Shown here: positions 8,122 to 37,747 of the stretch, in pieces | Numbering within the stretch: the first letter of the stretch is position 1 | Layout of the letters: every line of letters begins with the position of its first letter | From: an uncultured Pseudomonadota bacterium | GTDB taxonomy: Bacteria; UBA10199; JACPAL01; GCA-016699445 | Direction: 5' to 3' | Assembly (NCBI GenBank): GCA_964555055.1 | Contig: CAZKQW010000001.1 | Coordinates: 262,500-326,499, forward strand | Length of the DNA stretch: 64,000 bases | The notes under the pieces: generated by a model | What the model saw: the letters and a program-made list of their open reading frames with translations, nothing else | What the model was told of the DNA's origin: nothing | Database searches by the model: none | Program-made: the position numbers and the translations under genes

Positions 8122-10958
8122 GCCAAGGGACAAACGACGAGAAGACCGGCGAAACGAGCGGTAAACGCTACCGAGACACCCTTCACCTTCCACAAACCGA
8201 TTTTCCGATGAAGGCCGAGCTGGCCAAGCGCGAGCCTTCATTCCTGGAACGCTGGGAAAAAGATCAGCTCTACCGAAAAATCCTAAACGAAAACAAAAAT
8301 GGACCGAAATTCATCCTGCATGACGGGCCTCCGTACGCGAACGGCAACATCCATTTCGGCCACATCCTGAATAAGATCCTCAAAGACATGATCGTCCGCT
8401 ACCATAATATGCTGGGGCACTACAGTCCCTATATTCCCGGTTGGGATTGCCACGGGCTTCCGATCGAGCATCAAGTGGATAAGGACTTGGGACCTAAGAA
8501 GAAGACGATGTCAAAGGCCGAAATCCGCAAAGCGTGCCGGGATTACGCCTTAAAATACGTCAACCTCCAAAGAGAGGATTTCAAAAGACTGGGAATTGCC
8601 GCCGATTGGGAAAATCCGTATTTGACGATGAATTATCCTTATGAGGCTCAAATCGCGCGTGAGTTCGGGAAGTTCGCCGCCCAGGGGGATATCTATAAAG
8701 GCCTGCGTCCTGTCCTCTGGTGCGCGCATTGCCGTACCGCTTTGGCGGACGCGGAGGTCGAGCATGAGAACCATACCTCCCCTTCCGTTTATGTAAAATT
8801 TCCGCTAGTCCAGGACGAACGTTTTCAATCGCTCTTCCCTAAACTCGCCGGCGAGAAGGTCTCGATCGTGATTTGGACGACCACTCCCTGGACACTACCC
8901 GCCAACCTCGCGGTCGCTGTCCACACGAGCTACGATTACGTCGCCATGAATGTGGATGGGGAATTCCTCATCATCGCCAAGCAATTGGCCTCGGCTTTTT
9001 GCGAGATCTTGGAAAAATCCGAGACCGAACCCGCTTATCGGGTTTCGGGAGAAAAACTTGAAGGCTTGTCGGCACAACACCCCTTCCTCGACCGCACTTC
9101 GGCGATCGTCCTCGCCGACCATGTGACCGTGGATACGGGAACCGGCTGCGTCCATATCGCCCCCGGCCATGGTGAAGAAGATTATGAAGTGGGCAAGAAA
9201 TATAAGCTGCCAACTCTTACGCCAGTCGACGGTGAGGGACGCTACACGGCTGAATGCGGGATCGAAGCCTGGAAGGGGACGAAGGTACTGGAAGCGAATC
9301 CGACGGTCATCGCTCTCTTGAAGGAAAAAGGAGCCTTGCTGAAGGAAAAGAACATCGAGCACATGTACCCGCACTGTTGGCGCTGCAAAAAGCCGCTTAT
9401 TTTCCGCGCCACGGAGCAATGGTTTCTGTCCCTCACGAAGCACGACATCAAAGGAAAGGCTTTGGACGCCATCCGTCGAACCACATGGATCCCCCACTGG
9501 GGCCGCGAGCGCATCTATGGCATGGTCGAAAACCGTCCCGACTGGTGCCTCTCCCGTCAACGCAGCTGGGGCGTGCCGATCATGGCCTTCCGCTGCCGCG
9601 AATGCCAATACCTTCTCTTAGATCAAAAGCTCATCAATGCGATTGCCGATCGTTTCGAAAAAGAAGGCTCCGATATTTGGTTTTCCGAGCCCGTGGAAAA
9701 TTTACTTCCGGCCGGCACTCAATGTGCCCAATGCCAAAGCACGGAATGGGTGAAGGAAGAGGATATCCTCGATGTATGGTTCGATTCCGGAGTGAGCTTC
9801 GCCTCCGTCTTGGAAAAGCGTGACGATTTGGATTTTCCCGCCGACTTATATTTGGAAGGCAGCGACCAGCACCGGGGATGGTTCCATGCCTCCCTTCTCG
9901 CGTCCGTCGGCACTCGAGGAAAAGCTCCTTATAAAACCGTTCTAACCCATGGCTTCGTCGTAGACAGCCACGGAAAGAAGTATTCCAAATCTGCCGGGAA
10001 TTACGTACCTCCGGAAAAGGTGATCAAGGAAAACGGGGCCGAGATCCTGCGGCTCTGGGTGGCGGCCGAGGATTACCGTAATGACATACGCGTATCGACG
10101 GAAATCCTAGCGCGCTTGGCGGAAGCTTACCGGAAGATCCGCAATACGGGCCGATTTCTCCTGGGAAATCTTTCGGATTTCGACGCAAGTACGCCTTGGG
10201 ATAAAGTCACTCTCTACGAAATCGACCATTACGCGCGCCACCAACTCCAAAAATTGGTTCTGAAAGTGCAAAAAGCCTACGAAGAATCGAATTTTCACGT
10301 TATTTTCCATGAACTGAACCGTTTCTGCACGGTCGACCTTTCGGCGTTTTACCTCGATATCTTGAAGGACCGTCTTTACACCTACGCCAAGAGTCATCCG
10401 GCGCGGCGTGGAGCGCAAAAAGTCCTCTTCGAAATCGTCACGGTCATGAGTCGGCTGATGGCGCCGATTCTCGCCTTCACATCGGAAGAGATTTGGCAGC
10501 ATTTGCCTAATTTCACCGGCAAGACCGAATCCATCCATTTGGCTCGCTTTCCTAAGGCGGATCCCGCGGCGATCAACGAGGCCTTATCCGGTCGTTGGGA
10601 AAATTTCAAAGAACTCCGCGCCGATATTCTGAAGAGCCTTGAAGAAGCGCGGCAAGGCAAAATCATCGGAAATTCCTTGGAAGCGAAGATCATTTTCACC
10701 GCAGCCGACGAACCTTTGCATCTTTTGGAGAGTTTCGGCGATCAACTCTCGGATCTGCTGCAAGTCTCGCAAATCGAATGGAGCGAAGACATATCCCCTC
10801 AAGCCAAGCCGAGCAGCCTTTTTCCTTCCCTCTTCATCGAAATCCGGCGTGCCGATGGTAATAAATGCGAACGGTGCTGGAAATGGCGCGGGGACATCGG
10901 ACGGAACGCCACACATCCAACAATCTGCCATTCCTGCATCGAGGCCATCACCTCATGA
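8118..10958 (+). CDS. ileS: isoleucine--tRNA ligase
   Basis: Class I signatures: HIGH (PYANGNIHFGHILNKILKD) and KMSKS (KYSKSAGN). Also has the editing domain and a C-terminal zinc knuckle (CERCWKW...CHSC). Length 946 aa. Confidence 0.95.
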   Translation: MSQGTNDEKTGETSGKRYRDTLHLPQTDFPMKAELAKREPSFLERWEKDQLYRKILNENKNGPKFILHDGPPYANGNIHFGHILNKILKDMIVRYHNMLGHYSPYIPGWDCHGLPIEHQVDKDLGPKKKTMSKAEIRKACRDYALKYVNLQREDFKRLGIAADWENPYLTMNYPYEAQIAREFGKFAAQGDIYKGLRPVLWCAHCRTALADAEVEHENHTSPSVYVKFPLVQDERFQSLFPKLAGEKVSIVIWTTTPWTLPANLAVAVHTSYDYVAMNVDGEFLIIAKQLASAFCEILEKSETEPAYRVSGEKLEGLSAQHPFLDRTSAIVLADHVTVDTGTGCVHIAPGHGEEDYEVGKKYKLPTLTPVDGEGRYTAECGIEAWKGTKVLEANPTVIALLKEKGALLKEKNIEHMYPHCWRCKKPLIFRATEQWFLSLTKHDIKGKALDAIRRTTWIPHWGRERIYGMVENRPDWCLSRQRSWGVPIMAFRCRECQYLLLDQKLINAIADRFEKEGSDIWFSEPVENLLPAGTQCAQCQSTEWVKEEDILDVWFDSGVSFASVLEKRDDLDFPADLYLEGSDQHRGWFHASLLASVGTRGKAPYKTVLTHGFVVDSHGKKYSKSAGNYVPPEKVIKENGAEILRLWVAAEDYRNDIRVSTEILARLAEAYRKIRNTGRFLLGNLSDFDASTPWDKVTLYEIDHYARHQLQKLVLKVQKAYEESNFHVIFHELNRFCTVDLSAFYLDILKDRLYTYAKSHPARRGAQKVLFEIVTVMSRLMAPILAFTSEEIWQHLPNFTGKTESIHLARFPKADPAAINEALSGRWENFKELRADILKSLEEARQGKIIGNSLEAKIIFTAADEPLHLLESFGDQLSDLLQVSQIEWSEDISPQAKPSSLFPSLFIEIRRADGNKCERCWKWRGDIGRNATHPTICHSCIEAITS

Positions 10959-11518
10959 GAGATCTTTTGAAAAAATGGCCCCTCGTCTTAGGACTTGCCA
11001 CGGTGGTTTTCGTCTTGGATCAAATCACGAAGCATTGGATCGTCCAAAACGTGCCTCGGGAGGTCTTCTTCCCCGTCATTCCAGGGATTTTCGACATCGT
11101 CCATACGCGCAATAAAGGCGCGGCATTCGGTTTCATGTCGGAAATGCCCGAGCATATCCGGATGCCTTTCTTTTTCATCAGTTCCATTCTCGCGTTGGTC
11201 GGCATGATCTATTATTTTTCTAAAGCCTATCCGGAAGAAACCCTGGTCACGGTGAGTTTAGGTCTCATTTTAGGCGGCGCCTTAGGGAATATTTACGATC
11301 GCATCACCTTGGGCGAAGTGGTTGATTTTCTATCCTTTCATTATTACGACCAATGGGCGGACTTTTCTCTTTTCGGTCTTTCCGTTTCCTTCCGACTGGA
11401 ATGGCCCGCTTTCAACGTGGCGGATTCCGCTATTTGCGTGGCCATCGGCCTGTTGCTTTTTTTCATGCTCTTCAGGGCCGAGCCCGCGAAAACCAAAAAA
11501 GGAGTCGTTCTCCCATGA
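10955..11518 (+). CDS. lspA: lipoprotein signal peptidase II
   Basis: Starts at the ATG overlapping the ileS stop (ATGA at 10955-10958). Typical LspA segments: LVLGLATVVFVLDQITKHWIV, HTRNKGAAFGF, NVADSAICVAIGLLLF. ileS-lspA is a conserved gene pair. Confidence 0.88.
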   Translation: MRDLLKKWPLVLGLATVVFVLDQITKHWIVQNVPREVFFPVIPGIFDIVHTRNKGAAFGFMSEMPEHIRMPFFFISSILALVGMIYYFSKAYPEETLVTVSLGLILGGALGNIYDRITLGEVVDFLSFHYYDQWADFSLFGLSVSFRLEWPAFNVADSAICVAIGLLLFFMLFRAEPAKTKKGVVLP

Positions 11519-24309: not shown

Positions 24310-24846
24310 TTACTTCTCGGTATCCTTTAATGGGCCGCTGAACTTAGAATTGTAGGCCTTGATAACTTGATCTGTCAGGTCTTCTTTGGAAGCCACATAA
24401 AGAACGGTATCCGCCGAAGATTCCATGACCAACGTAAAACCACCACCCTTACCGATGTCGGCGGTGACCGTCTTGAGATTTTGGAGTATTTGGGAAGTCA
24501 TCTTAGACTCGCGCGCCATTAACTCATCACGATAACCGGCGAAATTCTTCTGGAGTTCGGTGTACTTCTCTTGAAAAGTCTTCTGCTTGGCGATGAGAGC
24601 GTCCTGGGACAGAACGGCCTTTTGCTTTTCGAATTCCGCCTGCATCTTCTTTAATTCATCCTCTTGGATTTGCAGCTTCTTTTGCTTGGCGTCGAATTCG
24701 GACTTGAGGGCGGCCTTGGCCTTTTTCCCCTGTTCGACTTCGTTCAAAGCCTTTTGAAAATTCACGGTGCCGATCTTTATATCAGCGGCATAGGATGATG
24801 CCGTCATCAGGACTACGGCCATCAAAGATAAAATCGATTTCTTCAT
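24310..24846 (-). CDS. skp: periplasmic chaperone Skp (OmpH)
   Basis: Signal peptide MKKSILSLMAVVLMTASSYAADIKIGTV, then a long K/Q/E-rich coiled coil typical of OmpH. Sits directly downstream of bamA. The track ORF extends upstream to 24909. Confidence 0.78.
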   Translation of the reverse strand: MKKSILSLMAVVLMTASSYAADIKIGTVNFQKALNEVEQGKKAKAALKSEFDAKQKKLQIQEDELKKMQAEFEKQKAVLSQDALIAKQKTFQEKYTELQKNFAGYRDELMARESKMTSQILQNLKTVTADIGKGGGFTLVMESSADTVLYVASKEDLTDQVIKAYNSKFSGPLKDTEK

Positions 24847-24915
24847 GATACTCGCTCCTTTTCGTCTTATTTTTTTGGGCCTTATCTGATGGGGAGGCTT
24901 TAAAGACAAGTGATT

Positions 24916-27222
24916 TTAGAAAAAACTCCCGATCGTGAAGTTGAAGATCACGGGATCCTCGCCGGGTTCGCGATGGATGGGCAACCCCCATTCGAAACGC
25001 AAGGGACCGAAGGGGGAATTCCAACGCAAGCCGAACCCATAATTACTTCTTAGGTTCTTGATCGAGAAATTCTCCTCTTCGGAAAAGGCGTTTCCGGTGT
25101 CGAAGAAAGTCACTGCCTTAAAACCGGCGGGATCGTATAAGGGCAGCTCGAGCTCGAGGTTTAGTTGCAGCATTTTATTGCCCCCAAAGACGAACCGATG
25201 GTCGCCTCCGATCGACGAGACGGGCACTCGAACGCTCGGGCCCACGCTTCGTAGGAAATACCCGCGGAGGAAATTGACCCCTCCCAGGAAGTATCTTTCG
25301 GAAAGAGGCACCGGATCCGAACCGGTGCTTTCTATCTGAGCCATCGTGAAGTTCAGTTTTCCGACGATTTTCTTCCATAAAGGTTGGTAGTAGCGGAAAT
25401 TCTCGGAGATACGAACGAAGTTATTGTCTCCCCCCAAACCGGCGAACTCGGTCGTAAAACTCTGGTACATGCCCGAAGAGGGAAAGAGTCGGTTGTTGCG
25501 GGTATCGCGGATGAGCGACATGCCGACGCTGGAGGTGAGGCCGGAGAGATTGTTGGCGAAGACGGCCGGCACCGTGGTGGTGAAGTCGCTGATCTCCACG
25601 TCCTCGATTTGATAGGTGAGCCGAAAAGTGGAATAGTCGAAAATGCGGTGTCCCAACGTCGCACTCCCACCGAAGGACTTGCGGTCGAAGTCTGAGTAGA
25701 CGTTGATCGTGCGGAAACCGGAAATGCCCAGGATCCATTGCGAATCGAGGAAAGACGGATCCTCCAAAGATAGAACGAAGAGTTGGCGTCGCGACGACGC
25801 TTCCACGGAGAACTGTCCGCTGATCCCGTAGCCCAGGAAATTCTCCTTCGCCAAGGATGCCGTCAGGATGAATTTTTCCACCGAAGAGAAACCGGCCCCG
25901 ATCGAAAACTGTCCCGTCTGCCTTTCCTTCACCGAAATGTTGATTTGGATGCGGTCATCCGAAGAACCCCGCGGCGTCGCAAAATTCACCTCCTCGAAGT
26001 AACCGAGGGCCTGGACGCGTTGTTGGGATTCACGAAGGCGGGATTCGTTATAAAGGGTGTTCTCTTTGATCTTCAACTCGCGGCGGATGACCTTATCACG
26101 AGTCACCGAATTCCCTGAAATATTGATTTTTTCGATGTAAACGCGCGGACCGCGCTGGACCGTGTACGTCACGTCGGCGGTCTTATCGTCATCGTTGGGG
26201 AGAATCATGGGATTGATGTTCGCGAACGCGTATCCCTGATCTCCGTAGAGGGCGGAGAGCATCTGCAGATCTTCTTCTACTTTTTGCCGCGAATAATACT
26301 GGCCGGCTTTCAAAACCAGTTTGGAGTCCATCTCCTGCTTGGTCGTCAAGATCTCGCCCTGAACTTCCACCTGCCGGACTTTATACTTTTCGCCTTCCGT
26401 GATGTGGTATGTGACCGTGATCGACTTCCGGTCACGCGACAGATAGATTTTAGGACTGCCGACTTTAACCTTCAAATAACCGTTATTTTGGTAAAAATAA
26501 ACGAGGAAGGCGCTGTCCCTCTTCACCATTTCCTCTTGATACTTACCGCCTCCCGTCAGCCACGAGAAATAGCTCCTCGCCTTAGTCTTGATCTTGGAAC
26601 GTAATTCAGCGTCCGAGAAAACCTTATTGCCGATGAAATTAACGCGCGCCACCCGAACCGGCTCGCGCTCGTGGATGCGAAATATCAGCTCTTGGTTATC
26701 GCCCGTCGGCTCCTTTTTGAATTCCGTCGTGATTTCCGCCAGATGATACCCTTCCTTGGCGTAATGTTCCCGGATCTTTCGGATCGTATTCGAAAGACGT
26801 ACGGAATCGAGCGGTGAGAAGGCTTTTACCTCGCTCAGTTCCCGCAGCTTATCTTCTTTTACCTTCTTATTACCCTCAAAAGTGATCTTAGTGACGTTCG
26901 TACGCTCCGTAACCGTCACGATGAGCCTGAGGCCTCCCGCTACATTGACCCTCTCAAACTTTACATCGGAAAAAGACCCCATGCGGTAGAGGTTTTTCAC
27001 ATCCTTTTGGATCTTGTCGGGGGAATACGACGAGCCGATCCGGCTCTCGAGGGTGGCAATGATAGCCCGGGTCTCCACCCTTTGATTCCCGTTCACTTGG
27101 ATTTCCCGAATCATGAGGTCGGCAAGGGAAACATCAGGCAAGACGGAAATAAGAAGGAACAGCAGAGCCGCTAAGGATCGCTTCAAGATATAGGGGAAAG
27201 ATAAAGGACGGTCGCGTTTCAT
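24916..27222 (-). CDS. bamA: outer membrane protein assembly factor BamA
   Basis: 768 aa. Signal peptide, repeated POTRA-like modules, and a C-terminal beta-barrel ending in the aromatic FNFTIGSFF. Conserved bamA-skp arrangement. Confidence 0.9.
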   Translation of the reverse strand: MKRDRPLSFPYILKRSLAALLFLLISVLPDVSLADLMIREIQVNGNQRVETRAIIATLESRIGSSYSPDKIQKDVKNLYRMGSFSDVKFERVNVAGGLRLIVTVTERTNVTKITFEGNKKVKEDKLRELSEVKAFSPLDSVRLSNTIRKIREHYAKEGYHLAEITTEFKKEPTGDNQELIFRIHEREPVRVARVNFIGNKVFSDAELRSKIKTKARSYFSWLTGGGKYQEEMVKRDSAFLVYFYQNNGYLKVKVGSPKIYLSRDRKSITVTYHITEGEKYKVRQVEVQGEILTTKQEMDSKLVLKAGQYYSRQKVEEDLQMLSALYGDQGYAFANINPMILPNDDDKTADVTYTVQRGPRVYIEKINISGNSVTRDKVIRRELKIKENTLYNESRLRESQQRVQALGYFEEVNFATPRGSSDDRIQINISVKERQTGQFSIGAGFSSVEKFILTASLAKENFLGYGISGQFSVEASSRRQLFVLSLEDPSFLDSQWILGISGFRTINVYSDFDRKSFGGSATLGHRIFDYSTFRLTYQIEDVEISDFTTTVPAVFANNLSGLTSSVGMSLIRDTRNNRLFPSSGMYQSFTTEFAGLGGDNNFVRISENFRYYQPLWKKIVGKLNFTMAQIESTGSDPVPLSERYFLGGVNFLRGYFLRSVGPSVRVPVSSIGGDHRFVFGGNKMLQLNLELELPLYDPAGFKAVTFFDTGNAFSEEENFSIKNLRSNYGFGLRWNSPFGPLRFEWGLPIHREPGEDPVIFNFTIGSFF

Positions 27223-27237
27223 GTGGAGGAAGGGTCG

Positions 27238-27909
27238 CTACCCTTGAAGGGTTCCATCATCAAGTCGAATTATTCTAGGAAATCTCCGGGCGATCTCCTG
27301 GTTATGGGTCACGACGATTAGGGCGATTCCGCTTTCCTCATGAACCTTCATTAAAAGGTCAATCAAGCGTTGGCTGTTTTCATGGTCGAGGTTTCCCGTA
27401 GGTTCGTCGGCGCAAACGAGCCTCGGTTCCGTCACGAGGGCACGCGCCACAGCCACGCGCTGTTGCTCTCCCCCTGACATCTCTGAGGGTCGATGGTGGA
27501 GACGGTGATCGACGCCTAAGGCGGCTAAATAATGCTTCGCCCGCTCATAGGCCGACTTATCTCCACGCATGAGCAGAGGCATGGCGGCGTTCTCTAAGGC
27601 CGTGAATTCAGGCATTAAATGATGGAACTGAAACACAAAACCGATGGATCGATTGCGAAAATCGGAAAGTTCTCGATCGCTCAGCCGTCCCAGAGATTTC
27701 CCGTCGAAGATCACTTCTCCCGCGTCTGGGATCTCGAGACCGCTTAAAACATGAAGTAACGTGCTCTTCCCCGCTCCCGAAGCCCCCAAGAGGACCGAAC
27801 GACTTTTAAAAGGGAATGCCAACGAAATCCCCTTCAGGACTTCGGTCCGTGCGACTCCGCTTCCATAGCCTTTCCTGACGTCACGACATTCCAACAGGAC
27901 ATCGGTCAT
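27238..27909 (-). CDS. lolD: lipoprotein-releasing system ATP-binding protein (LolD-like ABC ATPase)
   Basis: Walker [13 protein letters not shown] signature [15 protein letters not shown], Walker [13 protein letters not shown]. Located after two FtsX-like LolC/E permease genes. Confidence 0.82.
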
Positions 27910-27921
27910 AATTTCTCCGTT

Positions 27922-29199
27922 TTAAAGAAGCCCATTCAACGCTACATGCGTTATTTTTCTCAACGTCAGGATACAACCCAGCAGACAGATCGATAATGCC
28001 GCAATCGAAACCCAAATAAGGTGGTCCCATAAAAAGGCGACGGGAACGGTTTTTAGGAAATAAATTTCCGCTTCCAAACGGATCGGAGCCCAGGTCTTTA
28101 ATACGAATTCGCACGCGAGCCCACCCGCCAAACCCGAGGCGGTTCCCAACACACCGATCAGGATCCCATCTAGAATGAAAACCCGCCGCAACCGTCCCCA
28201 GCTATAACCCAAGACCCTTAAAATCGCGATTTCCCGCCTTTTTTGCAGAATGAGCATCATTAAGGTGCCCAGGACGTTCAAGGAAGCCACGACGATTAAA
28301 ACAGCCATGAGAAGACCGAACATCCATTTTTCGGTTTCCATGGCTTTGAAGACATTCTCATGAATCTCCTTCCAGCTCAGGATTTCATAAGGAAAGCCGA
28401 GGACATCCCTCAAAGCCTCCGAAAATCGATCGGCGTTCTTCGGAGAGTCTAGCCAGAGTTCGAATCCGGAGACCCTATCACCCATATGAAAAAAATCGCT
28501 CCCTTCCGCCAAATCCAAGAACGCGAAGGAAGAATCGACTTCATAGACGCCGGTCTCGAATACACCCGCCAGAAAGAAGCTCTTCAAATCCTGGGTGCTA
28601 ATCTGGGAAAGATCTTTTTTTAGGTGCGTCTTCGGGGAAAAGGCCGATGGGAACAATAACTTCACAACACCTGGCTTGACTCCGGATTCCTCGGCGACGA
28701 CCTTGCCCAGATAGATTTTAGGAAGATGCTTCTCGTTTTCTCCCGCGGCCATGTCGACGGATATGATTCCGGACTTATGAAAATAGTCCTGTGATACGCC
28801 TTTTAAAACTAAACCTTTGAGACTTTTCCCGCCGACCAGCATACCTTCGCGGTAAATAATGCGTTCCATGTTCTTTACCGAAATACGGGTTTCTCGCGAG
28901 ACATCCCCCATCGCTTTCTCGACGGCGATCGGGTCGTCGATATCGTCTTCGAAATGCACCGTCACGTGGGCTTGAGATCCGAGGATCGCCTTCTCGTAAT
29001 CCCTCGAGAAGCCTTCCGTGATCCCAAGAGCTAAAAGCAATGCCATTACCCCGAAACCCATTCCTAAAATAGCGACCCACAACGACGCCGAGAAGAATCC
29101 GCCGGCGCGCGAGCTTGCAAATAATCTCCACGCCAAAATCGCATCCCAGAGCCTCATGACTCCTCCCGTTGCAAGGATGCGATGGGATCCGCCTCGCAT
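27922..29199 (-). CDS. LolC/LolE-family lipoprotein-release permease (FtsX-like)
   Basis: N-terminal TM, a large periplasmic domain, and a C-terminal three-TM FtsX domain. The likely true start is MRLWDAIL (~29157), overlapping the upstream permease stop. Confidence 0.78.
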   Translation of the reverse strand: MRGGSHRILATGGVMRLWDAILAWRLFASSRAGGFFSASLWVAILGMGFGVMALLLALGITEGFSRDYEKAILGSQAHVTVHFEDDIDDPIAVEKAMGDVSRETRISVKNMERIIYREGMLVGGKSLKGLVLKGVSQDYFHKSGIISVDMAAGENEKHLPKIYLGKVVAEESGVKPGVVKLLFPSAFSPKTHLKKDLSQISTQDLKSFFLAGVFETGVYEVDSSFAFLDLAEGSDFFHMGDRVSGFELWLDSPKNADRFSEALRDVLGFPYEILSWKEIHENVFKAMETEKWMFGLLMAVLIVVASLNVLGTLMMLILQKRREIAILRVLGYSWGRLRRVFILDGILIGVLGTASGLAGGLACEFVLKTWAPIRLEAEIYFLKTVPVAFLWDHLIWVSIAALSICLLGCILTLRKITHVALNGLL

Positions 29200-30377
29200 G
29201 CCTTATAGGCCGGGTAAAAGGCGGCCAGAAGAACGATCACGGGCACCAGAAAGAAAATCATGGATAATGAAAGCGGGGAAAAGGAAAGGGGGAGTTTATC
29301 GATGTAATACGTAGGCGGAAGATCGATCGGGTGGCGCACGCCCCAGAGAACGCAGGACAAGCCCAAAAGTCCCCCCACACCGCCACCCCATGCCGCTAAA
29401 CGCAAGGCGTAGAAAAGAAAGATCTTTCGGATGGCCTTTCGCTGCAATCCGAGAGCCTTTAACAAACCCATGTCTTTTCTCTTTTCGACGACAGTCAATG
29501 ACAGCACACTGAAAATGTTAAAGGAAGCCACCCATAAAAGTACGGCAAGCAAAGCTCCCATACCGATCTTTTCCAAGCGTAGAGCGGCGAAGAGCTTAGG
29601 GTTCTGATCCACCCAGGTTTCGATGGCGAAAGAAGGCGGATCCGAAATTGACGCCTGACTCGTGATCGCGCGCTTCATCCTTTCCGTGTCGTGAATGTCG
29701 TGAAACCAAACTTCCAACCCCCGTTTCCCCTCGGCTCCAAAAAGCTTTCGGGCCTCTTCATAAGAGACCAATCCGTATTTATGGTCGAAGTCGTAATAGC
29801 CCGAGTGGAACAATCCGGTCAGTCGAACCTCACGACGGTGAGGGATCAAATCACCCGTCGGCCCGATTTCCCCCAAGGGAAAAACCAACTGCATGGTTTC
29901 ATTAAAATCCGGATGAACGCGCAACATCCCGGCGAGCTCATCGCCCAAGATTAAAGAGCCGGATGCGAACTCCCTATTTTCAGAAAGCTCCCCCAACCTC
30001 TGAGGATCGGGTTTTTCCGAAATCCCCCGCAAGCGCATCCCCATCGTCATGCCGTTATCGGCTTGAATGATAGTCTCGCCTTCGACGAAGGGAAGGACTT
30101 TGAGGACGCGCGGAATCCTTTGGATCTTCTCTCGGAGAGTGTCCATCTCCACGGTGTTATAAGGGGACAACGCCACAACCAACAACGGAGCCCGAAATCC
30201 CAAAATCCTTTTTTGGAAATCCCTCTCGAACCCTTCCATCACGGATAGGATGAAGACGAGGGCAAAGACGGAGACGGCGATCGAAAAAAGGGAGATGCGG
30301 ATCAGAAACGTCAATAAAGGAGGGCGGTTTCCCGAAAACTGGAAATAGCGTTTCGCGATGAAGGTTTCGAAGGACAT
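29154..30377 (-). CDS. LolC/LolE-family lipoprotein-release permease (FtsX-like)
   Basis: MSFETFIAKRYF N-terminus typical of LolC/E. Same topology as its neighbour. Confidence 0.78.
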   Translation of the reverse strand: MSFETFIAKRYFQFSGNRPPLLTFLIRISLFSIAVSVFALVFILSVMEGFERDFQKRILGFRAPLLVVALSPYNTVEMDTLREKIQRIPRVLKVLPFVEGETIIQADNGMTMGMRLRGISEKPDPQRLGELSENREFASGSLILGDELAGMLRVHPDFNETMQLVFPLGEIGPTGDLIPHRREVRLTGLFHSGYYDFDHKYGLVSYEEARKLFGAEGKRGLEVWFHDIHDTERMKRAITSQASISDPPSFAIETWVDQNPKLFAALRLEKIGMGALLAVLLWVASFNIFSVLSLTVVEKRKDMGLLKALGLQRKAIRKIFLFYALRLAAWGGGVGGLLGLSCVLWGVRHPIDLPPTYYIDKLPLSFSPLSLSMIFFLVPVIVLLAAFYPAYKACEADPIASLQREES

Positions 30378-31958: not shown

Positions 31959-34901
31959 TTAAGGTGCTGTCGTGATGCCGACTGGATAGACGGAACCCTC
32001 CGGTAAAACGTTCGGATAGGCGTGACCAGGTAGTGGAAGGCGGCTTGGATCAGAATCATTCGCATCTCTATTTTCGCCTCTATTTGCACGATCTACGCTA
32101 TCACAATGGCCGGAACCTATCGGTCGAGTGAATTCGAAAAAATTAAAATTGGTAGCAGGAGGCATCACCGTCATTTCTGGTGCATAGACAACACACCGAA
32201 ATGTTTCTCCATATAGAACTCCGCCACCATACATTCGATCAAAAGAAGTGGATACATCGCCCGTCGATCCGTTTAATAGGGGAATTTGGCCGGAATTCCA
32301 TTGAAAAAATCTTCCACCATTAGCGCAATGGCCACCTCCACTTTGTCCATATCTTCCCTGAGGGCCATCAAGCTCTGGCCAAGCTTCATTACCTCCATGC
32401 GCCCATTCCCCGTAACTACAACAGGACACGGTAAACGATGGGGCGCCTCGCGTGATGATGTTCGCCATAAGATGTCCATTATATTTTGAACAACCCGCGA
32501 CCCCATCACGGCTATCATGCTTGTTTCCATTAAGACCAGAGCAACTTAATCCATCTGGATTTCCGATAGGAACATTAAAAAATCTCTGAGGCTCATCATA
32601 ATTGTCCATATGCAGCCAAACTCCAGCCTCTCCTTCTAGCCCTCCTGCTTTCGTGCAATATTGGAAATCTGTACATCCTAGGATAGGCGCTTCGTTACAA
32701 TTGGTATCCGCAAGAATATAATCATATGCCCACGCCGTCGTGTTAAAATCTTTAATAATATTAATACCAGGGTTTTGAATATAGATGGGCAATTCAATGA
32801 AAAGATTCGGGCCACGAGAAATGGACATTTGGTAAGAATTACAGGTTAAATCCCGAGTGAGGCGATTCACATACCGGATTTCCCCCGTCGGCGTCACCGA
32901 GAGGCCGGGGGCCGCCGTGAGTGAGCTCACGACGATAGGCCCACTGGAGGCGGTGCATGCCGGGTTGGGACTACTCTGAGCGACGTTGAATTGAACGAAC
33001 CAAGGGATGTTCTCCGGCGTCTCCGAGAGGTGACGGCCGCTGATATTGATGAAACAAGATTGGCGAATATGAGTGGTGAGTTCCAATTGTCCGCTCGTGC
33101 AGGAAGTCCCACTCCCTAAAATTTGTCCGTTAGGCGTGCTGATCGCATCATGGCGCGCACAGACGTTACCGTCTGGCCCATACACATCACCAAAATCAAA
33201 AGTCGTCGCGGCTTCGTCATAGGCACAGTCAAAATCGACCGTCTTTACCGTCGGCTCTACGCCAGCGATAGCCCCTGGGATATTAATCTGAACAGAAGGC
33301 AGAACTCCATTACCCAAGAAACGGCATGTCTGGGAGAAATTCACGCGTCCAATACCAGCCGTAGCGGCGTTATCGGCATAAGACCCGCCCTCACACCCTT
33401 CAAAGGTCGGGGCTTCGCCCGCATTGGTATAAGACCCCTGGATCGTGAAAAAGGGATTGGTACGGTCGATCACGACATCATCCACTTGAAGCCCCGCACT
33501 TCCCAAAGCATAACGGCTTTCTGAGGAAAATATTTGCCCGTCTACGGAGCGCACCACGAGCTTAAACAAAGACGGACTCACCCGCATACGGGCGTACACC
33601 GTGTTTTGAAGAGCATCTCGCAAAGGAATACGGCAAGTCATAGCGACGAACTCGGAGGTCCTGGGTAATACGGGAGCATTCATGACAGGATCCTCTTGAT
33701 AGCCAGGCGTTACGCGAGGACCCGAGTCGACCACAGGCGTGGAACTACTCCCGGATCCCACCGACATGCTGCGCACGGTTTGGGTGGATGAGGACGTGCA
33801 CGTGCATCTTCCGGAAGAACAACTTTCAAGACAGGGAATGCCGTCATCCAAAGATCCATCGCGATAAACGCCATTTTCGGAGGTTCTGAGGATATTATTG
33901 CAGCTTTCCACTCCAAAAGGCCCGTAAATATAAGCTTCTTGAACGGCGGAAGCTTGTATGCTCTCCAGAGACCAATCTATCTTTAACAGTCCGCGGGAGA
34001 GTCTGGATTCGGACACTGTCAGGTTGGCGCGCGCGTTCGGCCCGATATTCGTGGCCATGCAACGGCCAGCATCGCAATAGCTTCCCGCACTGCATTGATC
34101 ATTCCTCTGGCACGATCCACAACGGCCCGAAACGCAGGCCTGGCCGGAACCGCACTGGTTGGTGTTTTCACAAGCACCGCATAAACCCATAATTTGCGAA
34201 GAAGTCGACGTGGCGTTCCGACACACCATGCCTTGGTAGTTGGCATTATCCCGAGAACACTGTGAAGCATCGCCAATCAAACAAGGATTGCACTGTCCAT
34301 GAAAACACACCAAGCCCTGGGAACACGCGGGGAGCCCTGTCCCGCATGTGGGGCGTGTATTATCTACGCATTGGGAATTTTCGCAAATCTGACCGCTGGG
34401 ACAATCATAAGCCGTATTGCACGCATCCACGCACTGGTTCCCGCGACAGACTTGACCAATCAAACATTGGGAGCTGCTCCCAGCGGAACATACGGCGGTC
34501 GTGGGAGGCACCGCGCTCCCCCCCATACCCGCCGTACCACCTCTATTAACAACAGCCACTTGGGCCAAGGTCACCGCTTGGTCTCCGCATATTTTTTTCA
34601 CATCGTACAATCCATTAGCCGAAGGAGGGATGGGAAACGAAAAAGACGCGCTTGTCGCAGAGAGAAAGCCGATGACGGAACGAGGAACCAGCTGCGTATC
34701 AAATAAAATGGCGCATCCTTCGGATTCCGTAAGGCCAGTGCATGTCACGCGAGTTCCCCGCGCGCCTGACGAAGGCGTGCATGTTTGGAGCAAGGATTGG
34801 TTCGTCTGATTTTGGCCCGCAGGACCTGAGGAGTTTTCGCTACAGCCCAGAAAGCCTAAAAAAGGGAGCAGGATGAGGACATAAAACGATAATTTTTTCA
34901 T
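31959..34901 (-). CDS. large (~980 aa) cysteine-rich lipoprotein, unknown function
   Basis: Signal peptide with lipobox (LLPFLGFLGCS). A central block of repeated Cx(2)GQxCxxxxC-type modules (e.g. CPSGQICENSQC, CGSGQACVSGRCGSC, CSAGSYCDAGRC). Followed by a large Cys/Gly-rich C-terminal region. Confidence 0.6.
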   Translation of the reverse strand: MKKLSFYVLILLPFLGFLGCSENSSGPAGQNQTNQSLLQTCTPSSGARGTRVTCTGLTESEGCAILFDTQLVPRSVIGFLSATSASFSFPIPPSANGLYDVKKICGDQAVTLAQVAVVNRGGTAGMGGSAVPPTTAVCSAGSSSQCLIGQVCRGNQCVDACNTAYDCPSGQICENSQCVDNTRPTCGTGLPACSQGLVCFHGQCNPCLIGDASQCSRDNANYQGMVCRNATSTSSQIMGLCGACENTNQCGSGQACVSGRCGSCQRNDQCSAGSYCDAGRCMATNIGPNARANLTVSESRLSRGLLKIDWSLESIQASAVQEAYIYGPFGVESCNNILRTSENGVYRDGSLDDGIPCLESCSSGRCTCTSSSTQTVRSMSVGSGSSSTPVVDSGPRVTPGYQEDPVMNAPVLPRTSEFVAMTCRIPLRDALQNTVYARMRVSPSLFKLVVRSVDGQIFSSESRYALGSAGLQVDDVVIDRTNPFFTIQGSYTNAGEAPTFEGCEGGSYADNAATAGIGRVNFSQTCRFLGNGVLPSVQINIPGAIAGVEPTVKTVDFDCAYDEAATTFDFGDVYGPDGNVCARHDAISTPNGQILGSGTSCTSGQLELTTHIRQSCFINISGRHLSETPENIPWFVQFNVAQSSPNPACTASSGPIVVSSLTAAPGLSVTPTGEIRYVNRLTRDLTCNSYQMSISRGPNLFIELPIYIQNPGINIIKDFNTTAWAYDYILADTNCNEAPILGCTDFQYCTKAGGLEGEAGVWLHMDNYDEPQRFFNVPIGNPDGLSCSGLNGNKHDSRDGVAGCSKYNGHLMANIITRGAPSFTVSCCSYGEWAHGGNEAWPELDGPQGRYGQSGGGHCANGGRFFQWNSGQIPLLNGSTGDVSTSFDRMYGGGVLYGETFRCVVYAPEMTVMPPATNFNFFEFTRPIGSGHCDSVDRANRGENRDANDSDPSRLPLPGHAYPNVLPEGSVYPVGITTAP

Positions 34902-35053
34902 AATTTTATCCTTAACTTCCTTAACTTAAGCAACAGAGATGCCAAGTGACGACTTAAGCGAATCGATCCTAAATTGCTGAAATTAATTGATTATTTTAAG
35001 AGGCCTCAGCCTTTTATAGGCGAAGGGTGGGATTTCTTTCCTCAATTTGAGAA

Positions 35054-36151
35054 CTAAGAAACTTGGCTTAAAAGATACGCTTTCATGAAGGGATCAAGGT
35101 CGCCGTCAAGAACGCGATCGGTATCTCCGACCTCATAATCCGTTCGATGGTCTTTAATCATACGATAGGGTTGTAAAACATACGACCGTATTTGGGACCC
35201 CCAAGCGATGTCCTGTTTGCTATCCTCAATCGCGGCTTTTTCCTTATTTTTCTTTTCCATTTCCAAATCGTAAAGCCGGGCCTTGAGGATCTTCATGGCC
35301 GTGTCCCGATTGCGATGCTGGGAACGTTCGTTCTGGCAAGCGACGACAATATTCGTGGGCAAATGCGTGATGCGCACCGCGGAGTCCGTCTTATTGACCT
35401 TTTGACCACCGGCCCCGCTGGAACGGAATGTATCGATGCGCAGATCCGCAGGATTGATTTGGATGTCGATCTCTTGTTCGATGTCCGGCAAAACGAAGAC
35501 GGAAGCGAACGACGTATGACGTCTTTTGTTGGAGTCGAAAGGCGAAATACGTACGAGCCGATGGACGCCTACCTCGGCTTTCAAATACCCGAACGCATAA
35601 GGACCTTCCACGATCATCGTAACGGATCGGAATCCCGTCTGGTCGCCAGGCGTAAAATCAATGATCTCGTTCTTGTACCCGTGCTTATCGGCCCACATGC
35701 GGTACATGCGCAGGAGCATTTCCGCCCAATCACATGATTCCGTCCCGCCGGCACCCGCGTTGATGGAAAATATGGCATTCGCCTGGTCGTTGGAACCCGA
35801 GAGAATTTGATGAAACTCCAAATCCCCCACCGTCTTCTCTAATTCTCGCAACTTCGCTTCGGCCTCGTGTTCGAGTTCGGCATCGTCACCGCTCGCTAAA
35901 AGCTCGAATATAGACTCCACTTCGACCAAAATATCCGCGATTTTCTTGTCGATGAAAAAATCGGCTTTGAGCTTCTCGAGCTCTTTTAAGGACGCGGCGG
36001 CTTTTTGAGGGTCGCTCCAAAATGTGTCAGAGGCCGTGAGGTGTTCGAGTTCGTCAAGACGGTGCTTCTTGGAGGCTAAGTCAAAGCCTCCTCCTAAGAG
36101 GAGCCGAGGCCTCTTTCAGATCTTCAAGCTTTCTTTTGAGGTCGTTTTGCA
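35054..36151 (-). CDS. prfB: peptide chain release factor 2, with a programmed +1 ribosomal frameshift
   Basis: Main frame carries SPF (RISPFDSN) and GGQ (SGAGGQKVN) with RF2-wide similarity. An upstream short frame MQNDLKRKLEDLKEASAPLRRRL ends at the in-frame TGA of AGGAGGAGG CTT TGA C. Shifting +1 at CTT joins the 291-aa frame seamlessly. Confidence 0.9.
36068..36088 (-). promoter_or_regulatory. prfB autoregulatory +1 frameshift site (internal SD AGGAGGAGG + CUU UGA C)
   Basis: Reverse complement of 36068-36088 reads AGGAGGAGGCTTTGAC. This is identical in organisation to the E. coli RF2 recoding site. Confidence 0.85.
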
Positions 36152-37747
36152 TGTCGCGTCCTTATGGAAAAAAGAAACGGTGAGCAACAAAATCAGAAGG
36201 GCCACGCACGTCCAGGCGAAGACATCCCCATATTTCATATAGACGGTTTCGGTTTTCAGGATGGGAATGGAGACGACGCGCGTTTCCTCCCGAAAAGGCA
36301 TCAATGAGGCGATCGCCTCCCCCGTCGGAGCAAAGACGGCGGATACGCCCGTATTGGTCACCCGGACCATCGAGCGTCGGTTCTCGATAGCTCGAAAACG
36401 GGAAAAATCAAGATGCTGGTACAACGCCGAAGAACGGTCGTACCAGGCGTCGTTGGTGAGATTGACGAGAAAGTCGGCGCCTTTTCCGGTGAAGGTACGG
36501 CTAATTTCCGGGAATAGATCCTCGTAGCAAATCGTCACCCCAAAGGATCGTTCTCCGATCGAAAGCACATGGAAATCAGATCCCGGCTCGAAATCCCCGG
36601 CGCCTGGCACCACCTTTTCCAAAAAATAAAAAAACTTTTTAAAAGGCACGTATTCTCCCATCGGCACGAGATGCCTCTTGAAATACCAACCTTGGAGACG
36701 GCCACCGGGCATCACCAAAGCGGCTCCGTTACGCATACGGAACATATCGCCCTCGTAAGCCTGAGGCGCGGGAGGCGGCCAAGCCTCCGGTGGGACGCCC
36801 TCGTAAGTCAGCATTCCCATGAGAAGGGGGATTCGTATACTTTTCAATAATTCAATATCGAACTGATCCGGTGGAATGACCGTGGGAAAAGATGATTCGG
36901 GCCATACGATAAGGTCGGGGGATTCCTTCTGCAACTCTTCCGAGAGGGAAATATGCCGTTGGACGATTCCATCGACGTTCTCTTCCAACCACTTTTCGTC
37001 TTGAGGAACGTTTCCTTGCACCAGACCTACCTTCAACACATTCACCGTAGACTTTTGCGCTTCGCTGATTTCGCTAAGACGCCATTTTCCATAAACGCAC
37101 AGGCTTGCCATGAGGACCACGGACACGGAAACGGCCACCCAAGGTGATCCCCACTTTTTCGAACCCACCACGTCTTCCTGCTCCATCCACTCGCGGGCAA
37201 ACCAGTAAATGATTTCTCCTAAAGCGGCGTTGATCAGAACCAGGACAAACAAAAGGCCATAAACGCCGAAAAGGTCTAGGGACTGGAGGAAAGTCAAAAA
37301 AGACCGCTGGCTATAAGCTAAATGGGCCCACGGAAAACCTTGGAATGGGAAATAATTCCTCAAAAATTCAAAAGCCGCCCAGGCGAGAGGAAAGGCCCAG
37401 AAAATTGGCCCGCCGCGACGGTGGACCCATACCGAAATAAAAGCGGTCATTCCGGTAAAAAGAGACAGGAGGCAAACGAGTGCGGCGAGCGCTCCAACGG
37501 CTCCCAGGAAGGGCACATTCCCATAGCGGAACAACGCGATCGTGACCCAGTAGAGAGAAAACGAAAAATGAAAAATCCCAAAGCTAAACCCCTTCCAAAA
37601 ACTCCCTGAAGATCGTTTTTTTCGAATCGAAAGATAGAAAGGCACTAAAGAAAACCACGCGAGAAAGCCCAAATCGGGCCAAGGATTGCCGAAAGATGTC
37701 GGGAGGCTCAAGGCCGAAAGCAATCCTGAAAGGGACGCCAGCCACAT
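36116..37747 (-). CDS. lnt: apolipoprotein N-acyltransferase
   Basis: N-terminal multi-TM region plus a CN-hydrolase domain. The catalytic Cys lies in the VTICYEDLFPE context. The 3' end overlaps the prfB start by ~36 nt. Confidence 0.83.
   Translation of the reverse strand: MWLASLSGLLSALSLPTSFGNPWPDLGFLAWFSLVPFYLSIRKKRSSGSFWKGFSFGIFHFSFSLYWVTIALFRYGNVPFLGAVGALAALVCLLSLFTGMTAFISVWVHRRGGPIFWAFPLAWAAFEFLRNYFPFQGFPWAHLAYSQRSFLTFLQSLDLFGVYGLLFVLVLINAALGEIIYWFAREWMEQEDVVGSKKWGSPWVAVSVSVVLMASLCVYGKWRLSEISEAQKSTVNVLKVGLVQGNVPQDEKWLEENVDGIVQRHISLSEELQKESPDLIVWPESSFPTVIPPDQFDIELLKSIRIPLLMGMLTYEGVPPEAWPPPAPQAYEGDMFRMRNGAALVMPGGRLQGWYFKRHLVPMGEYVPFKKFFYFLEKVVPGAGDFEPGSDFHVLSIGERSFGVTICYEDLFPEISRTFTGKGADFLVNLTNDAWYDRSSALYQHLDFSRFRAIENRRSMVRVTNTGVSAVFAPTGEAIASLMPFREETRVVSIPILKTETVYMKYGDVFAWTCVALLILLLTVSFFHKDATCKTTSKESLKI

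What the first reader, a model, noticed from the sequence alone, without database searches (positions are those of the whole stretch)
31959..34901. 980-aa lipoprotein with a block of Cx2GQxCxxxxC cysteine-rich repeats
After a lipobox signal peptide, the protein carries many near-repeats of a small disulfide-knot-like module: CPSGQICENSQC, CSQGLVCFHGQC, CGSGQACVSGRC, CSAGSYCDAGRC. It then has ~600 aa of Cys/Gly-rich sequence of unknown fold. It is encoded alone between the lysS-lol-bamA operon and prfB. Such repeat-rich giant lipoproteins are often adhesins, S-layer-associated or predatory/contact-dependent factors.
Basis: seen in the sequence. Interest (0 to 1): 0.5.

Follow-up and report, generated by a model that had tools for sequence, protein, structure and literature searches.

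The report
Sigma-54-controlled orphan cysteine-rich giant lipoprotein
This is a real gene for a large, disulfide-rich membrane-anchored protein with no known function, found in only a handful of uncultured bacteria and always switched on through a special signal-dependent (sigma-54) promoter; it most likely sticks out of the cell envelope as a binding or recognition protein.

Summary
The 980-aa ORF (31959-34901, minus strand) is intact and has a lipoprotein signal peptide. It carries six ~20-aa four-Cys modules (aa 138-281): five exact C..G..C....C copies against 0.02 expected, and module similarity z~11. The rest is not repetitive. Residues 286-700 model as Ig/FnIII-like beta-sandwiches, and the last 280 aa match nothing. 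The family is tiny, with 7 sequences among ~15 billion, all lipoproteins and none matching Pfam or NCBIfam. The repeats are sub-threshold relatives of the myxobacterial TraA-type repeat (TIGR04201, 16.6 bits against a 25-bit cutoff). New here: every family member, in four different gene contexts, has an exact sigma-54 -24/-12 promoter (TTGGCA-N5-TTGCT) 24-31 nt before its start codon. The gene is an insertion into the ancestral prfB-lysS pair, is absent from sister genomes, and is the fastest-evolving gene of its neighbourhood while keeping 48 of 53 cysteines. Best reading: a signal-induced, disulfide-braced outer-membrane lipoprotein with a stalk and a distal orphan domain, probably for binding or recognition. 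Location and function are inferred, not shown. I rate it moderately interesting: an orphan family assembled mostly from known module types.

The parts
34929..34944 (-). Sigma-54 (RpoN) -24/-12 promoter element TGGCATCTCTGTTGCT in front of the gene
   Evidence: Pattern TGGYAY-N5-TTGCW: 2 hits in the 64-kb window against 0.10 expected. There is exactly one hit in each of loci L001-L007, always just upstream of the homologue. It is invariant in the alignment of six otherwise poorly alignable upstream regions. The -12 GC lies 24-31 nt from the ATG in all six.
34909..34913 (-). Shine-Dalgarno AAGGA, 7 nt before the ATG
   Evidence: Read from the sequence. A purine-rich SD occupies the same place in all six leaders.
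31959..34901 (-). Complete ORF, 980 aa plus stop codon
34842..34901 (-). Signal peptide with lipobox (aa 1-20, FLG|C20; Ser at +2)
   Evidence: The lipobox Cys is conserved in all family members.
34785..34841 (-). Low-complexity tether (aa 21-39, SENSSGPAGQNQTNQSLLQ)
   Evidence: Read from the sequence; pLDDT below 50.
34548..34784 (-). N-terminal small beta-rich domain (aa 40-118, four conserved Cys). It looks IPT/TIG-like by eye, but this was not confirmed.
   Evidence: Beta strands with pLDDT 50-58. C41, C54 and C105 are invariant in the six-member alignment and C63 is conserved among the three closest members. 72% identity to P0002 over aa 51-100. No Pfam or PDB sequence hit.
34059..34490 (-). 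Six four-Cys modules (aa 138-281; 24 Cys, 16.7% Cys). R5 and R6 have the canonical C-x5-C-x5-C-x4-C-x2 spacing.
   Evidence: Weak DUF7107 hit (13.1 bits) and weak TIGR04201 hit (16.6 bits). phmmer hits to repeat proteins P0006, P0007, P0009 and P0010.
32802..34046 (-). All-beta region (aa 286-700), modelled as several Ig/FnIII-like sandwiches. It is interrupted by a variable, low-confidence S/T/P-rich insert (aa 331-421 = 33639-33911).
31962..32801 (-). Orphan C-terminal domain (aa 701-980). Conserved H795, D799-G800, C804, the C827-C828-x-Y-G-E motif, C903, R-P-x-G-x-C-D and an acidic D-x-D-D-S-D tail.
   Evidence: Alignment A4. It is unpredicted in both AlphaFold runs (pLDDT 25-55; 36). No Pfam, NCBIfam or PDB match.
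35038..35053 (-). Inverted repeat TTCTCAAATTGAGGAA directly after the prfB stop codon, about 95-110 nt upstream of the -24 element. Its role is unknown: activator site, or end of the prfB transcript.
   Evidence: Conserved in the window, L001 and L004 but not in L005-L007. It was not picked up by the terminator scan.

Best explanation
The gene encodes a ~100-kDa exported lipoprotein. After Sec export and lipidation at Cys20 it is probably sorted to the outer membrane by the Lgt/LspA/Lnt/LolCDE machinery, all of which is encoded in this same window. The mature chain has 52 cysteines and is probably locked by up to 26 disulfides. From the lipid anchor outward it has these parts: a flexible tether; a small beta domain; six TraA-like four-Cys modules that act as a rigid spacer (stalk); a string of Ig/FnIII-like beta-sandwiches; and a distal, cysteine-stabilised C-terminal domain of unknown fold. 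That distal domain is the likely working end, for binding or recognition of an external or envelope ligand. The gene is not simply read through from prfB. It has its own sigma-54 promoter, so it should be made only when a matching enhancer-binding activator is switched on by a signal. Shown here: the ORF, the lipobox, the repeats, family-wide conservation of the cysteines and of the promoter motif, patchy lineage distribution, and faster evolution than the neighbours. Inferred: actual lipidation, outer-membrane or surface location, disulfide bonding, the stalk role, a binding function, and the identity of the activator and signal.
For: Real, selected gene. Lipoprotein: the lipobox is conserved in all members and none has Asp at +2. 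The window encodes lgt, lspA, lnt, lolC/E/D, bamA and skp. Disulfides: 48 of 53 Cys are conserved against the 52%-identical orthologue. The four real losses occur as neighbouring pairs, 361/366 and 735/743. The mature Cys number is even in 5 of 6 distinct members. Repeats. They have the same Cys spacing as proteins that pass TIGR04201. Module number varies from 0 to 6 across the family, as expected for a spacer. TraA repeats are proposed to form a stalk and some are dispensable (PMC3325183, PMC6372800). Beta-sandwich array. Sigma-54 promoter. A sigma-54 activator is encoded in the window. Sigma-54 commonly controls cell-exterior components (PMC3162934). Exposure to diversifying pressure: X is 52% identical where its neighbours are 60-95%, and 34% where they are 61-93%. 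The anchor-proximal parts are the most conserved and the insert and C-terminal parts the least. Accessory nature: it is absent between prfB and lysS in two sister genomes.
Against: No experiment or homology places the protein on the cell surface. The +2 sorting rule is established for enterobacteria, not for this lineage. The C-terminal domain has no fold assignment (pLDDT 36). The overall model is poor (mean pLDDT 51), so the domain picture rests on about 300 confident residues. No adhesin, lectin or receptor family is matched. The repeat fails the curated thresholds of TIGR04201 and DUF7107. P0008 lacks the repeats and has a different C-terminus, so the 'stalk plus head' plan is not universal in the family. 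P0004 has an odd number of mature Cys. No shared activator-binding site was found. rpoN itself was not seen, because it lies outside the window.
Confidence: 0.45

Rival explanations
1. It is a periplasm-facing structural component of the envelope, for example a spacer or tether between the outer membrane and the wall. On this view it is functionally tied to the lipoprotein and outer-membrane biogenesis genes around it (lnt, lolCDE, bamA, skp).
For: It lies inside a block of envelope-biogenesis genes in the window and in L001. It is a long, rigid, disulfide-braced modular chain. Many outer-membrane lipoproteins face the periplasm (general knowledge).
Against: The surrounding genes are ordinary conserved housekeeping operons (ybeZY-lnt, prfB-lysS, lolCDE, bamA-skp). 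These operons exist unchanged without X in sister genomes L010 and L011. Only the prfB-X link recurs: P0003 is followed by rpsB-tsf, and P0004 and P0008 sit elsewhere. X evolves much faster than every envelope gene beside it. It also has a signal-dependent promoter rather than a housekeeping one.
Confidence: 0.15
2. The orphan C-terminal domain is an enzyme or toxin (hydrolase, or a contact-dependent or predatory effector) held on a long stalk. This follows the 'predatory/contact-dependent factor' idea of the first reader.
For: His, Asp, Cys, Tyr and Glu residues are invariant across five diverged members (H795, D799, C827-C828, Y830, E832). The domain matches nothing known. aa 801-850 are as conserved as the N-terminus, at 70%.
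Against: There is no hit to any catalytic, toxin or defence family. There is no immunity-like or partner gene next to it in any of four contexts, and it is monocistronic. The vicinal Cys pair and the other conserved Cys are equally well explained as structural disulfides. There is no evidence of a predatory lifestyle in the window.
Confidence: 0.15
3. The TGGCA-N5-TTGCT element is not a working promoter. The gene is simply co-transcribed with prfB and expressed constitutively.
For: It is on the same strand as prfB with only 152 nt between them, and no convincing terminator was detected after prfB. Promoter function was not tested.
Against: The element is invariant in six members whose upstream sequences are otherwise barely alignable. 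That includes two loci where the upstream gene is not prfB: tsaD in L005 and spoVR in L007. It is the only hit in each ~22-kb locus. Its geometry relative to the SD and ATG is conserved. The chance expectation is 0.1 per 64 kb.
Confidence: 0.07
4. It is a spurious or decaying ORF, not a functional gene.
For: There is no annotated family, and it is a 'hypothetical protein' in the only named record.
Against: There are full-length orthologues at 52% and 38% identity. Third-codon-position identity is 0.36 against 0.71 at second positions. 48 of 53 Cys are conserved. The promoter, SD and lipobox are conserved.
Confidence: 0.01

Closest known systems
TraA of Myxococcus xanthus (outer-membrane exchange receptor; Cys-rich repeat TIGR04201)
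   Same: It is a cell-envelope-anchored protein with tandem ~20-aa Cys-rich repeats between the anchor and a more variable distal domain. The Cys spacing C-x5-C-x5-C-x4-C-x2 is the same as in proteins that pass TIGR04201. Repeat number varies between orthologues. The repeats are proposed to act as a stalk (PMC3325183, PMC6372800).
   Different: X fails the TIGR04201 cutoff (16.6 against 25 bits) and gives no hit to the TraA model. It has no PA14-like variable domain, no MYXO-CTERM tag and no traB-like neighbour. Its anchor is an N-terminal lipid rather than a C-terminal tag, so the polarity is reversed. It has Ig-like sandwiches and an orphan C-terminal domain instead.
Widespread bacterial proteins with Dickkopf_N/DUF7107/EB-like CxxGxxCxxGxC tandem repeats (here P0006, P0007, P0009, P0010)
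   Same: The repeats are homologous: phmmer E = 6e-9 to 1e-4 against the whole 1.84-billion library. Many are also lipoproteins or secreted proteins that combine the repeats with Ig-like, TIG or LamG domains.
   Different: Those proteins have 7-18 regular repeats and recognisable Pfam domains. X has six irregular modules that fall below every curated threshold. It shares nothing with them outside the repeat block.
Sigma-54-controlled cell-surface components, e.g. the Rrp2-RpoN-RpoS-controlled surface lipoproteins of Borrelia
   Same: In both, a lipoprotein of the cell exterior has its synthesis gated by a sigma-54-dependent switch. This is a general theme (PMC3162934).
   Different: In Borrelia the control is indirect, through RpoS (my own knowledge), and the lipoproteins are small and unrelated. 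Here the -24/-12 element sits directly in front of the gene. The activator and the signal are unknown.
Long modular bacterial adhesins with Ig-like extender domains (e.g. Lap/RTX adhesins, PDB 6xi3, 5irb)
   Same: The predicted middle part is a string of Ig/FnIII-like beta-sandwiches that would extend a distal domain away from the cell.

Membership tests
Bacterial lipoprotein (signal peptidase II substrate) | Positively charged n-region, hydrophobic h-region and a lipobox [LVI..][ASTVI..][GAS]-C within the first ~35 residues | tested here: met
   MKK-LSFYVLILLPFLGF-LG|C20. Equivalent lipoboxes are found in P0002, P0003, P0004 (LSAC after start correction), P0005 and P0008.
Bacterial lipoprotein (signal peptidase II substrate) | The organism encodes Lgt, LspA, Lnt and a Lol system | tested here: met
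   lgt 6815-7615; lspA 10865-11518 (TIGR00077, 119 bits); lnt and lolC/E/D.
Bacterial lipoprotein (signal peptidase II substrate) | Actual acylation and cleavage; membrane and leaflet of residence | not testable with these tools
   Needs labelling, globomycin treatment and fractionation.
TIGR04201 Myxo_Cys_RPT (TraA-type Cys-rich repeat) | Score at or above the curated cutoff of 25 bits | tested here: not met
   No hit for the whole protein. The isolated block scores 16.6 bits, E = 0.0064, at aa 261-281. Positive controls: P0007 at 82.7 bits and P0010 at 44 bits.
TIGR04201 Myxo_Cys_RPT (TraA-type Cys-rich repeat) | Tandem ~20-aa unit with Cys spacing C-x5-C-x5-C-x4-C-x2 | tested here: met
   R5 and R6 are exact and R1-R3 are near (x5-7). 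The same regular expression finds 13 copies in P0007 and 18 in P0006.
TraA outer-membrane exchange receptor (NF033759) | PA14-like variable domain, MYXO-CTERM tag and adjacent traB | tested here: not met
   No NCBIfam or Pfam hit. The C-terminus ...VYPVGITTAP has no sorting tag. The neighbours are prfB and lysS.
Pfam DUF7107 (PF23416) / Dickkopf_N (PF04706) | Score at or above the gathering threshold (24.6 / 25 bits) | tested here: not met
   DUF7107 scores 13.1 bits, E = 0.12, at aa 161-204. There is no Dickkopf_N hit.
Sigma-54-dependent promoter | GG at -24 and GC at -12 in TGGCAC-N5-TTGCW with exact spacing, upstream of the gene on the coding strand | tested here: met
   TGGCATCTCTGTTGCT at 34929-34944 (-); 2 hits in the window against 0.10 expected. 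The consensus itself is taken from my own knowledge of the literature.
Sigma-54-dependent promoter | Conservation of the element in orthologous and non-syntenic loci | tested here: met
   All six distinct members have it, one hit per locus, 24-31 nt from the ATG.
Sigma-54-dependent promoter | The genome encodes RpoN and enhancer-binding activators | tested here: inconclusive
   An activator with a Sigma54_activat domain (236.7 bits) is at 55251-56723. rpoN itself is not in the window.
Sigma-54-dependent promoter | Upstream activator sequence; mapped transcription start; RpoN dependence | tested here: inconclusive
   No motif is shared by all six upstream regions except an A/T-rich stretch. An inverted repeat occurs in three of them. 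Start site and RpoN dependence cannot be tested here.
Ig/FnIII-like beta-sandwich array | Seven- to nine-stranded sandwich domains that match solved Ig or FnIII domains | tested here: inconclusive

The most novel reading that the evidence does not exclude
The 280-residue C-terminal domain (with the conserved H-x-S-D-D-G, CC-x-Y-G-E and acidic D-x-D-D-S-D motifs) is a genuinely new fold with a new binding or catalytic activity. Together with the family-wide sigma-54 promoter it would form a previously undescribed, signal-induced surface recognition or effector system. That system would be specific to a small clade of uncultured 'deltaproteobacterial' lineages and would have been gained by insertion into the prfB-lysS operon.
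Probability: 0.25. Interest if true: 0.55.

Novelty: new variant of a known kind. Interest (0 to 1): 0.37.

Why it matters
If the reading is right, this is an undescribed protein family: 7 sequences among ~15 billion, with no Pfam, NCBIfam or PDB relative. It shows how uncultured bacteria build a signal-gated surface protein from a lipid anchor, TraA-like disulfide modules and Ig-like domains, capped by a domain of unknown fold. The invariant sigma-54 promoter gives a direct experimental handle: a reporter fusion or an activator screen could find the inducing signal. The orphan C-terminal domain is a candidate for a new fold. The effect on wider questions is modest. The work adds one more sigma-54-controlled 'cell exterior' component and one more use of Cys-rich stalk repeats outside Myxococcota.

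Tried and rejected
1. Pfam, NCBIfam, PADLOC and PHROGs scans of X and its family members gave no family; the only hit was DUF7107 at 13 bits.
2. PDB sequence searches found nothing meaningful. I searched with the whole protein, the family profile A2, the isolated Cys block and the isolated N-terminal domain. The 6xi3 hit aligns no cysteines and I reject it.
3. A profile search of the 5.8-billion word-indexed database with A2 returned only the query itself, not even P0002, so it was uninformative.
With A3 it found only CP064976.1 in the genome collection and nothing in JGI metagenomes.
5. AlphaFold on the full length gave a mean pLDDT of 51. On aa 690-980 alone it gave 36, which is a failed model, so I did not use it for fold search.
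6. The afdb50 library was unavailable.
7. dN/dS could not be computed because synonymous sites are saturated.
8. The sigma-70 promoter and terminator scan gave nothing convincing in either intergenic region.
9. Literature searches for DUF7107, the assembly accession and the SRA runs found nothing. The sample environments and the GTDB placement therefore remain unknown.
10. S-layer, predatory-factor and contact-dependent-toxin readings were considered and rejected. There are no matching domains or partner genes.
11. A functional link to lnt, lol and bamA was considered and rejected, because sister genomes keep that block without X.
Full report

Yes. The window holds an uninterrupted 980-codon ORF at 31959..34901 on the minus strand. 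The identical protein is called on two assemblies. A full-length orthologue at 52% identity exists in a complete MAG chromosome, CP064976.1 'Deltaproteobacteria bacterium'.

Identity to that orthologue at codon positions 1/2/3 is 0.63/0.71/0.36. dN is 0.42 and synonymous sites are saturated. This is the signature of a protein-coding gene under purifying selection.

The N-terminus MKKLSFYVLILLPFLGFLG|C20 is a lipoprotein signal peptide.

All four quoted motifs are present, plus a fifth. C..G..C....C occurs five times against 0.02 expected from 2000 shuffles.

The true unit is a ~20-residue four-Cys module: C-x5-7-C-x5-C-x4-C followed by x2-3. It is present six times between residues 138 and 281, with the fourth copy expanded. 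The mean pairwise module score is 36.9, against 21.3 +/- 1.4 in shuffles that keep the block's cysteine content.

The remaining 695 residues contain no internal repeat. They have 3.5% Cys and 10.9% Gly.

**2. What the protein looks like**

No Pfam, NCBIfam, PADLOC, PHROGs or PDB sequence relative reaches significance.

The last 280 residues were unpredicted in both runs; the separate run gave pLDDT 36. This region carries conserved motifs across five diverged members:
- H795-x-S-x-D-G
- C827-C828-x-Y-G-E
- Y-G-E-x-x-x-C903
- R-P-x-G-x-C-D
- an acidic D-x-D-D-S-D tail

Of the 53 cysteines, 48 are conserved in the 52% orthologue. The lipobox Cys is merely shifted by an alignment gap. The four real losses are two neighbouring pairs, 361/366 and 735/743, which is what loss of whole disulfides would look like. 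The number of cysteines in the mature protein is even in five of six distinct members: 52, 48, 48, 46 and 22. It is 45 in P0004.

**3. The family**

An exhaustive phmmer search of 1.84 billion representatives found nine proteins. Five are real relatives:
- P0002, 56% identity
- P0003, 38%, full length
- P0004, 30%
- P0005, 29%
- P0008, 31%, over aa 421-699 only

The other four match only the Cys block. With P0011, a near-copy of P0002, the family has seven sequences among ~15 billion, and each 90% cluster has one or two members.

All are lipoproteins without any Pfam domain. The number of Cys modules varies from six down to none.

The repeat-only hits pass Pfam DUF7107 and Dickkopf_N. P0007 (82.7 bits) and P0010 (44 bits) also pass NCBIfam TIGR04201, the repeat defined on Myxococcus TraA. 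X's isolated block reaches only 16.6 bits against a cutoff of 25. The Cys spacing is nonetheless identical.

X's repeats are therefore divergent relatives of the TraA-type repeat, not members by the curated criterion. In TraA these ~20-aa repeats are proposed to form a stalk that displays the recognition domain. Their number varies between orthologues and several are dispensable (PMC3325183, PMC6372800).

**4. Genomic context**

In the window and in CP064976.1 the order is phoH - 7TM-HD - ybeY - lnt - prfB - X - lysS - lolC - lolE - lolD - bamA - skp. In the P0003 contig the upstream side is the same, but X is followed by rpsB-tsf-pyrH-frr. P0005 also follows a release-factor gene. P0004 follows tsaD and P0008 follows spoVR.

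BamA of this organism has dozens of relatives at 60-70% identity in uncultured 'Deltaproteobacteria bacterium' MAGs. In two of them on long contigs (GCA_016180845.1, GCA_023265625.1) prfB is followed directly by lysS, with no X.

So X is an accessory insertion into the ancestral prfB-lysS pair, and its distribution is patchy. The host of P0005 is as diverged as one of the X-less genomes (prfB 75% identical in both) and yet has prfB-X.

X is the fastest-evolving gene of its neighbourhood. It is 52% identical where the neighbours are 60-95%, and 34% where they are 61-93%. Within X, the anchor-proximal domain and the repeats are most conserved (66-72%). The insert and parts of the C-terminal region are least conserved (34-42%). 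The apparent association with lnt, lol and bamA is therefore best explained by neighbouring housekeeping operons, not by shared function.

**5. The new finding: a family-wide sigma-54 promoter**

Aligning the prfB-X spacers of four genomes showed an invariant TTGG(C/T)A-N5-TTGCT. This is the -24/-12 consensus of sigma-54 promoters (TGGCAC-N5-TTGCW; my own knowledge of the literature).

The pattern TGGYAY-N5-TTGCW occurs twice in the 64-kb window against 0.10 expected. One copy is at 34929-34944 on the coding strand of X.

In each of the seven fetched loci with a family member it occurs exactly once, always immediately upstream of the X homologue. That includes the two loci with unrelated upstream genes.

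The six distinct upstream regions are otherwise barely alignable. In all of them the -12 GC lies 24-31 nt from the start codon with a Shine-Dalgarno sequence in between. For P0004 the element overlaps the database start codon. This shows that the true start is the downstream ATG, which also gives a normal lipoprotein signal peptide.

The window encodes a sigma-54 activator. No activator site shared by all six was found. An inverted repeat just after the prfB stop codon is conserved only in the three closest genomes. Sigma-54 control of cell-exterior components is a recognised theme (PMC3162934).

**6. Most likely mechanism**

These points are shown:
- a selected gene
- a lipobox
- six Cys modules
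- a conserved cysteine scaffold
- a beta-sandwich middle part, at moderate model confidence
- a conserved -24/-12 element
- accessory distribution
- fast evolution

These points are inferred. The protein is exported, lipidated at Cys20 and sent to the outer membrane. There is no Asp at +2 in any member, and Lgt, LspA, Lnt and LolCDE are all in this window. It is cross-linked by up to 26 disulfides. It extends from the membrane as tether, small beta domain, rigid Cys stalk and Ig-like domains, and presents the orphan C-terminal domain for binding or recognition. It is made only when an unknown enhancer-binding protein is activated. I put this composite reading at about 0.45.

The rivals are:
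- a periplasmic structural role (0.15)
- an enzyme or toxin head (0.15)
- constitutive read-through with a non-functional motif (0.07)
- a spurious ORF (0.01)

**7. Comparison and novelty**

The closest functional analogue is TraA, which has an anchor-proximal Cys-rich stalk and a variable distal domain. X fails every defining feature of TraA membership: no PA14-like domain, no MYXO-CTERM tag, no traB neighbour and a sub-threshold repeat score. Its polarity is also reversed.

X shares the repeat type with many bacterial 'Dickkopf_N/DUF7107' proteins but nothing else. It resembles long Ig-domain adhesins only at the level of generic fold.

I class it as a new variant of a known kind: an orphan family assembled mostly from known module types, with an unassignable C-terminal domain and a distinctive, strictly conserved sigma-54 control.

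**8. Verdict**

Interest is moderate (0.37). The gene is real and unusual in its rarity and regulation, but its function remains inferred, and a specialist would not find the architecture very surprising.

Noticed in passing
window 52474-52489 (+) and 52559-52876 (+): This is the only other exact sigma-54 -24/-12 match in the window (TGGCATTTTCTTTGCT). It lies 70 nt upstream of a 105-aa ORF with a signal peptide and four Cys (MKRTITMFLIGVTLILAQPVMA|GG...). It is about 3 kb from an NtrC-type sigma-54 activator (55251-56723, -) and a PAS histidine kinase (56748-57932, -).
   Followed up: partly
window 36080-36095 (-): Classical programmed +1 frameshift site of prfB: AGGAGGAGG CTT TGA C, an internal Shine-Dalgarno three nt before CUU UGA C. 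This explains why the listed prfB ORF (35054-35929) starts at PCRF profile position 53 and why gene callers truncate it.
   Followed up: partly
window 6815-7615 (+), 8118-11518 (+), 24310-30377 (-), 36116-37747 (-): The whole lipoprotein maturation and sorting pathway, plus outer-membrane assembly genes, lies within one 64-kb window: lgt, ileS-lspA, lolC/E/D, bamA-skp and lnt.
   Followed up: yes
window 2310-3296, 3391-5109, 5134-6699 (+): Three consecutive large ORFs (328, 572 and 521 aa) lie just upstream of lgt. They have no Pfam match and no signal peptide. The middle one has a hydrophobic Ala/Gly-rich C-terminal segment.
   Followed up: no
L009 1544-1559 (+) and 1583-6863: In a sister genome (BamA 66% identical) a different insertion of four genes without clear Pfam matches sits between lysS and lolC. 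It consists of a 140-aa ORF, an 819-aa AAA-like ORF, a 252/271-aa ORF and a 532-aa ORF. It is also preceded by an exact sigma-54 motif (TGGCATGTCCCTTGCT). The prfB-lysS-lol region may be a recurrent landing site for sigma-54-driven accessory genes.
   Followed up: partly
L005 649-695: The database start of P0004 (position 656) lies inside the sigma-54 element. The real start is the ATG at 695 (MSSRKVFLAFSLLAVFSLSAC...), preceded by GGAGG.
   Followed up: yes
L010 3578-4399: In an X-less sister genome, a 273-aa ORF without a Pfam match lies between lnt and prfB.
   Followed up: no
P0005 aa 202-219: One distant family member has a thrombospondin type 3-like acidic motif (DSDSDGVADASDTC) inside its Cys-rich region (TSP_3, 18.4 bits, below cutoff). 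The acidic D-x-D-D-S-D tail conserved at the C-terminus of five members looks similar and might bind calcium.
   Followed up: no
tool behaviour: The word-indexed profile search with alignment A2 returned only the query protein and missed P0002, which is itself a row of that alignment. Negative results from that mode should not be trusted.
   Followed up: no
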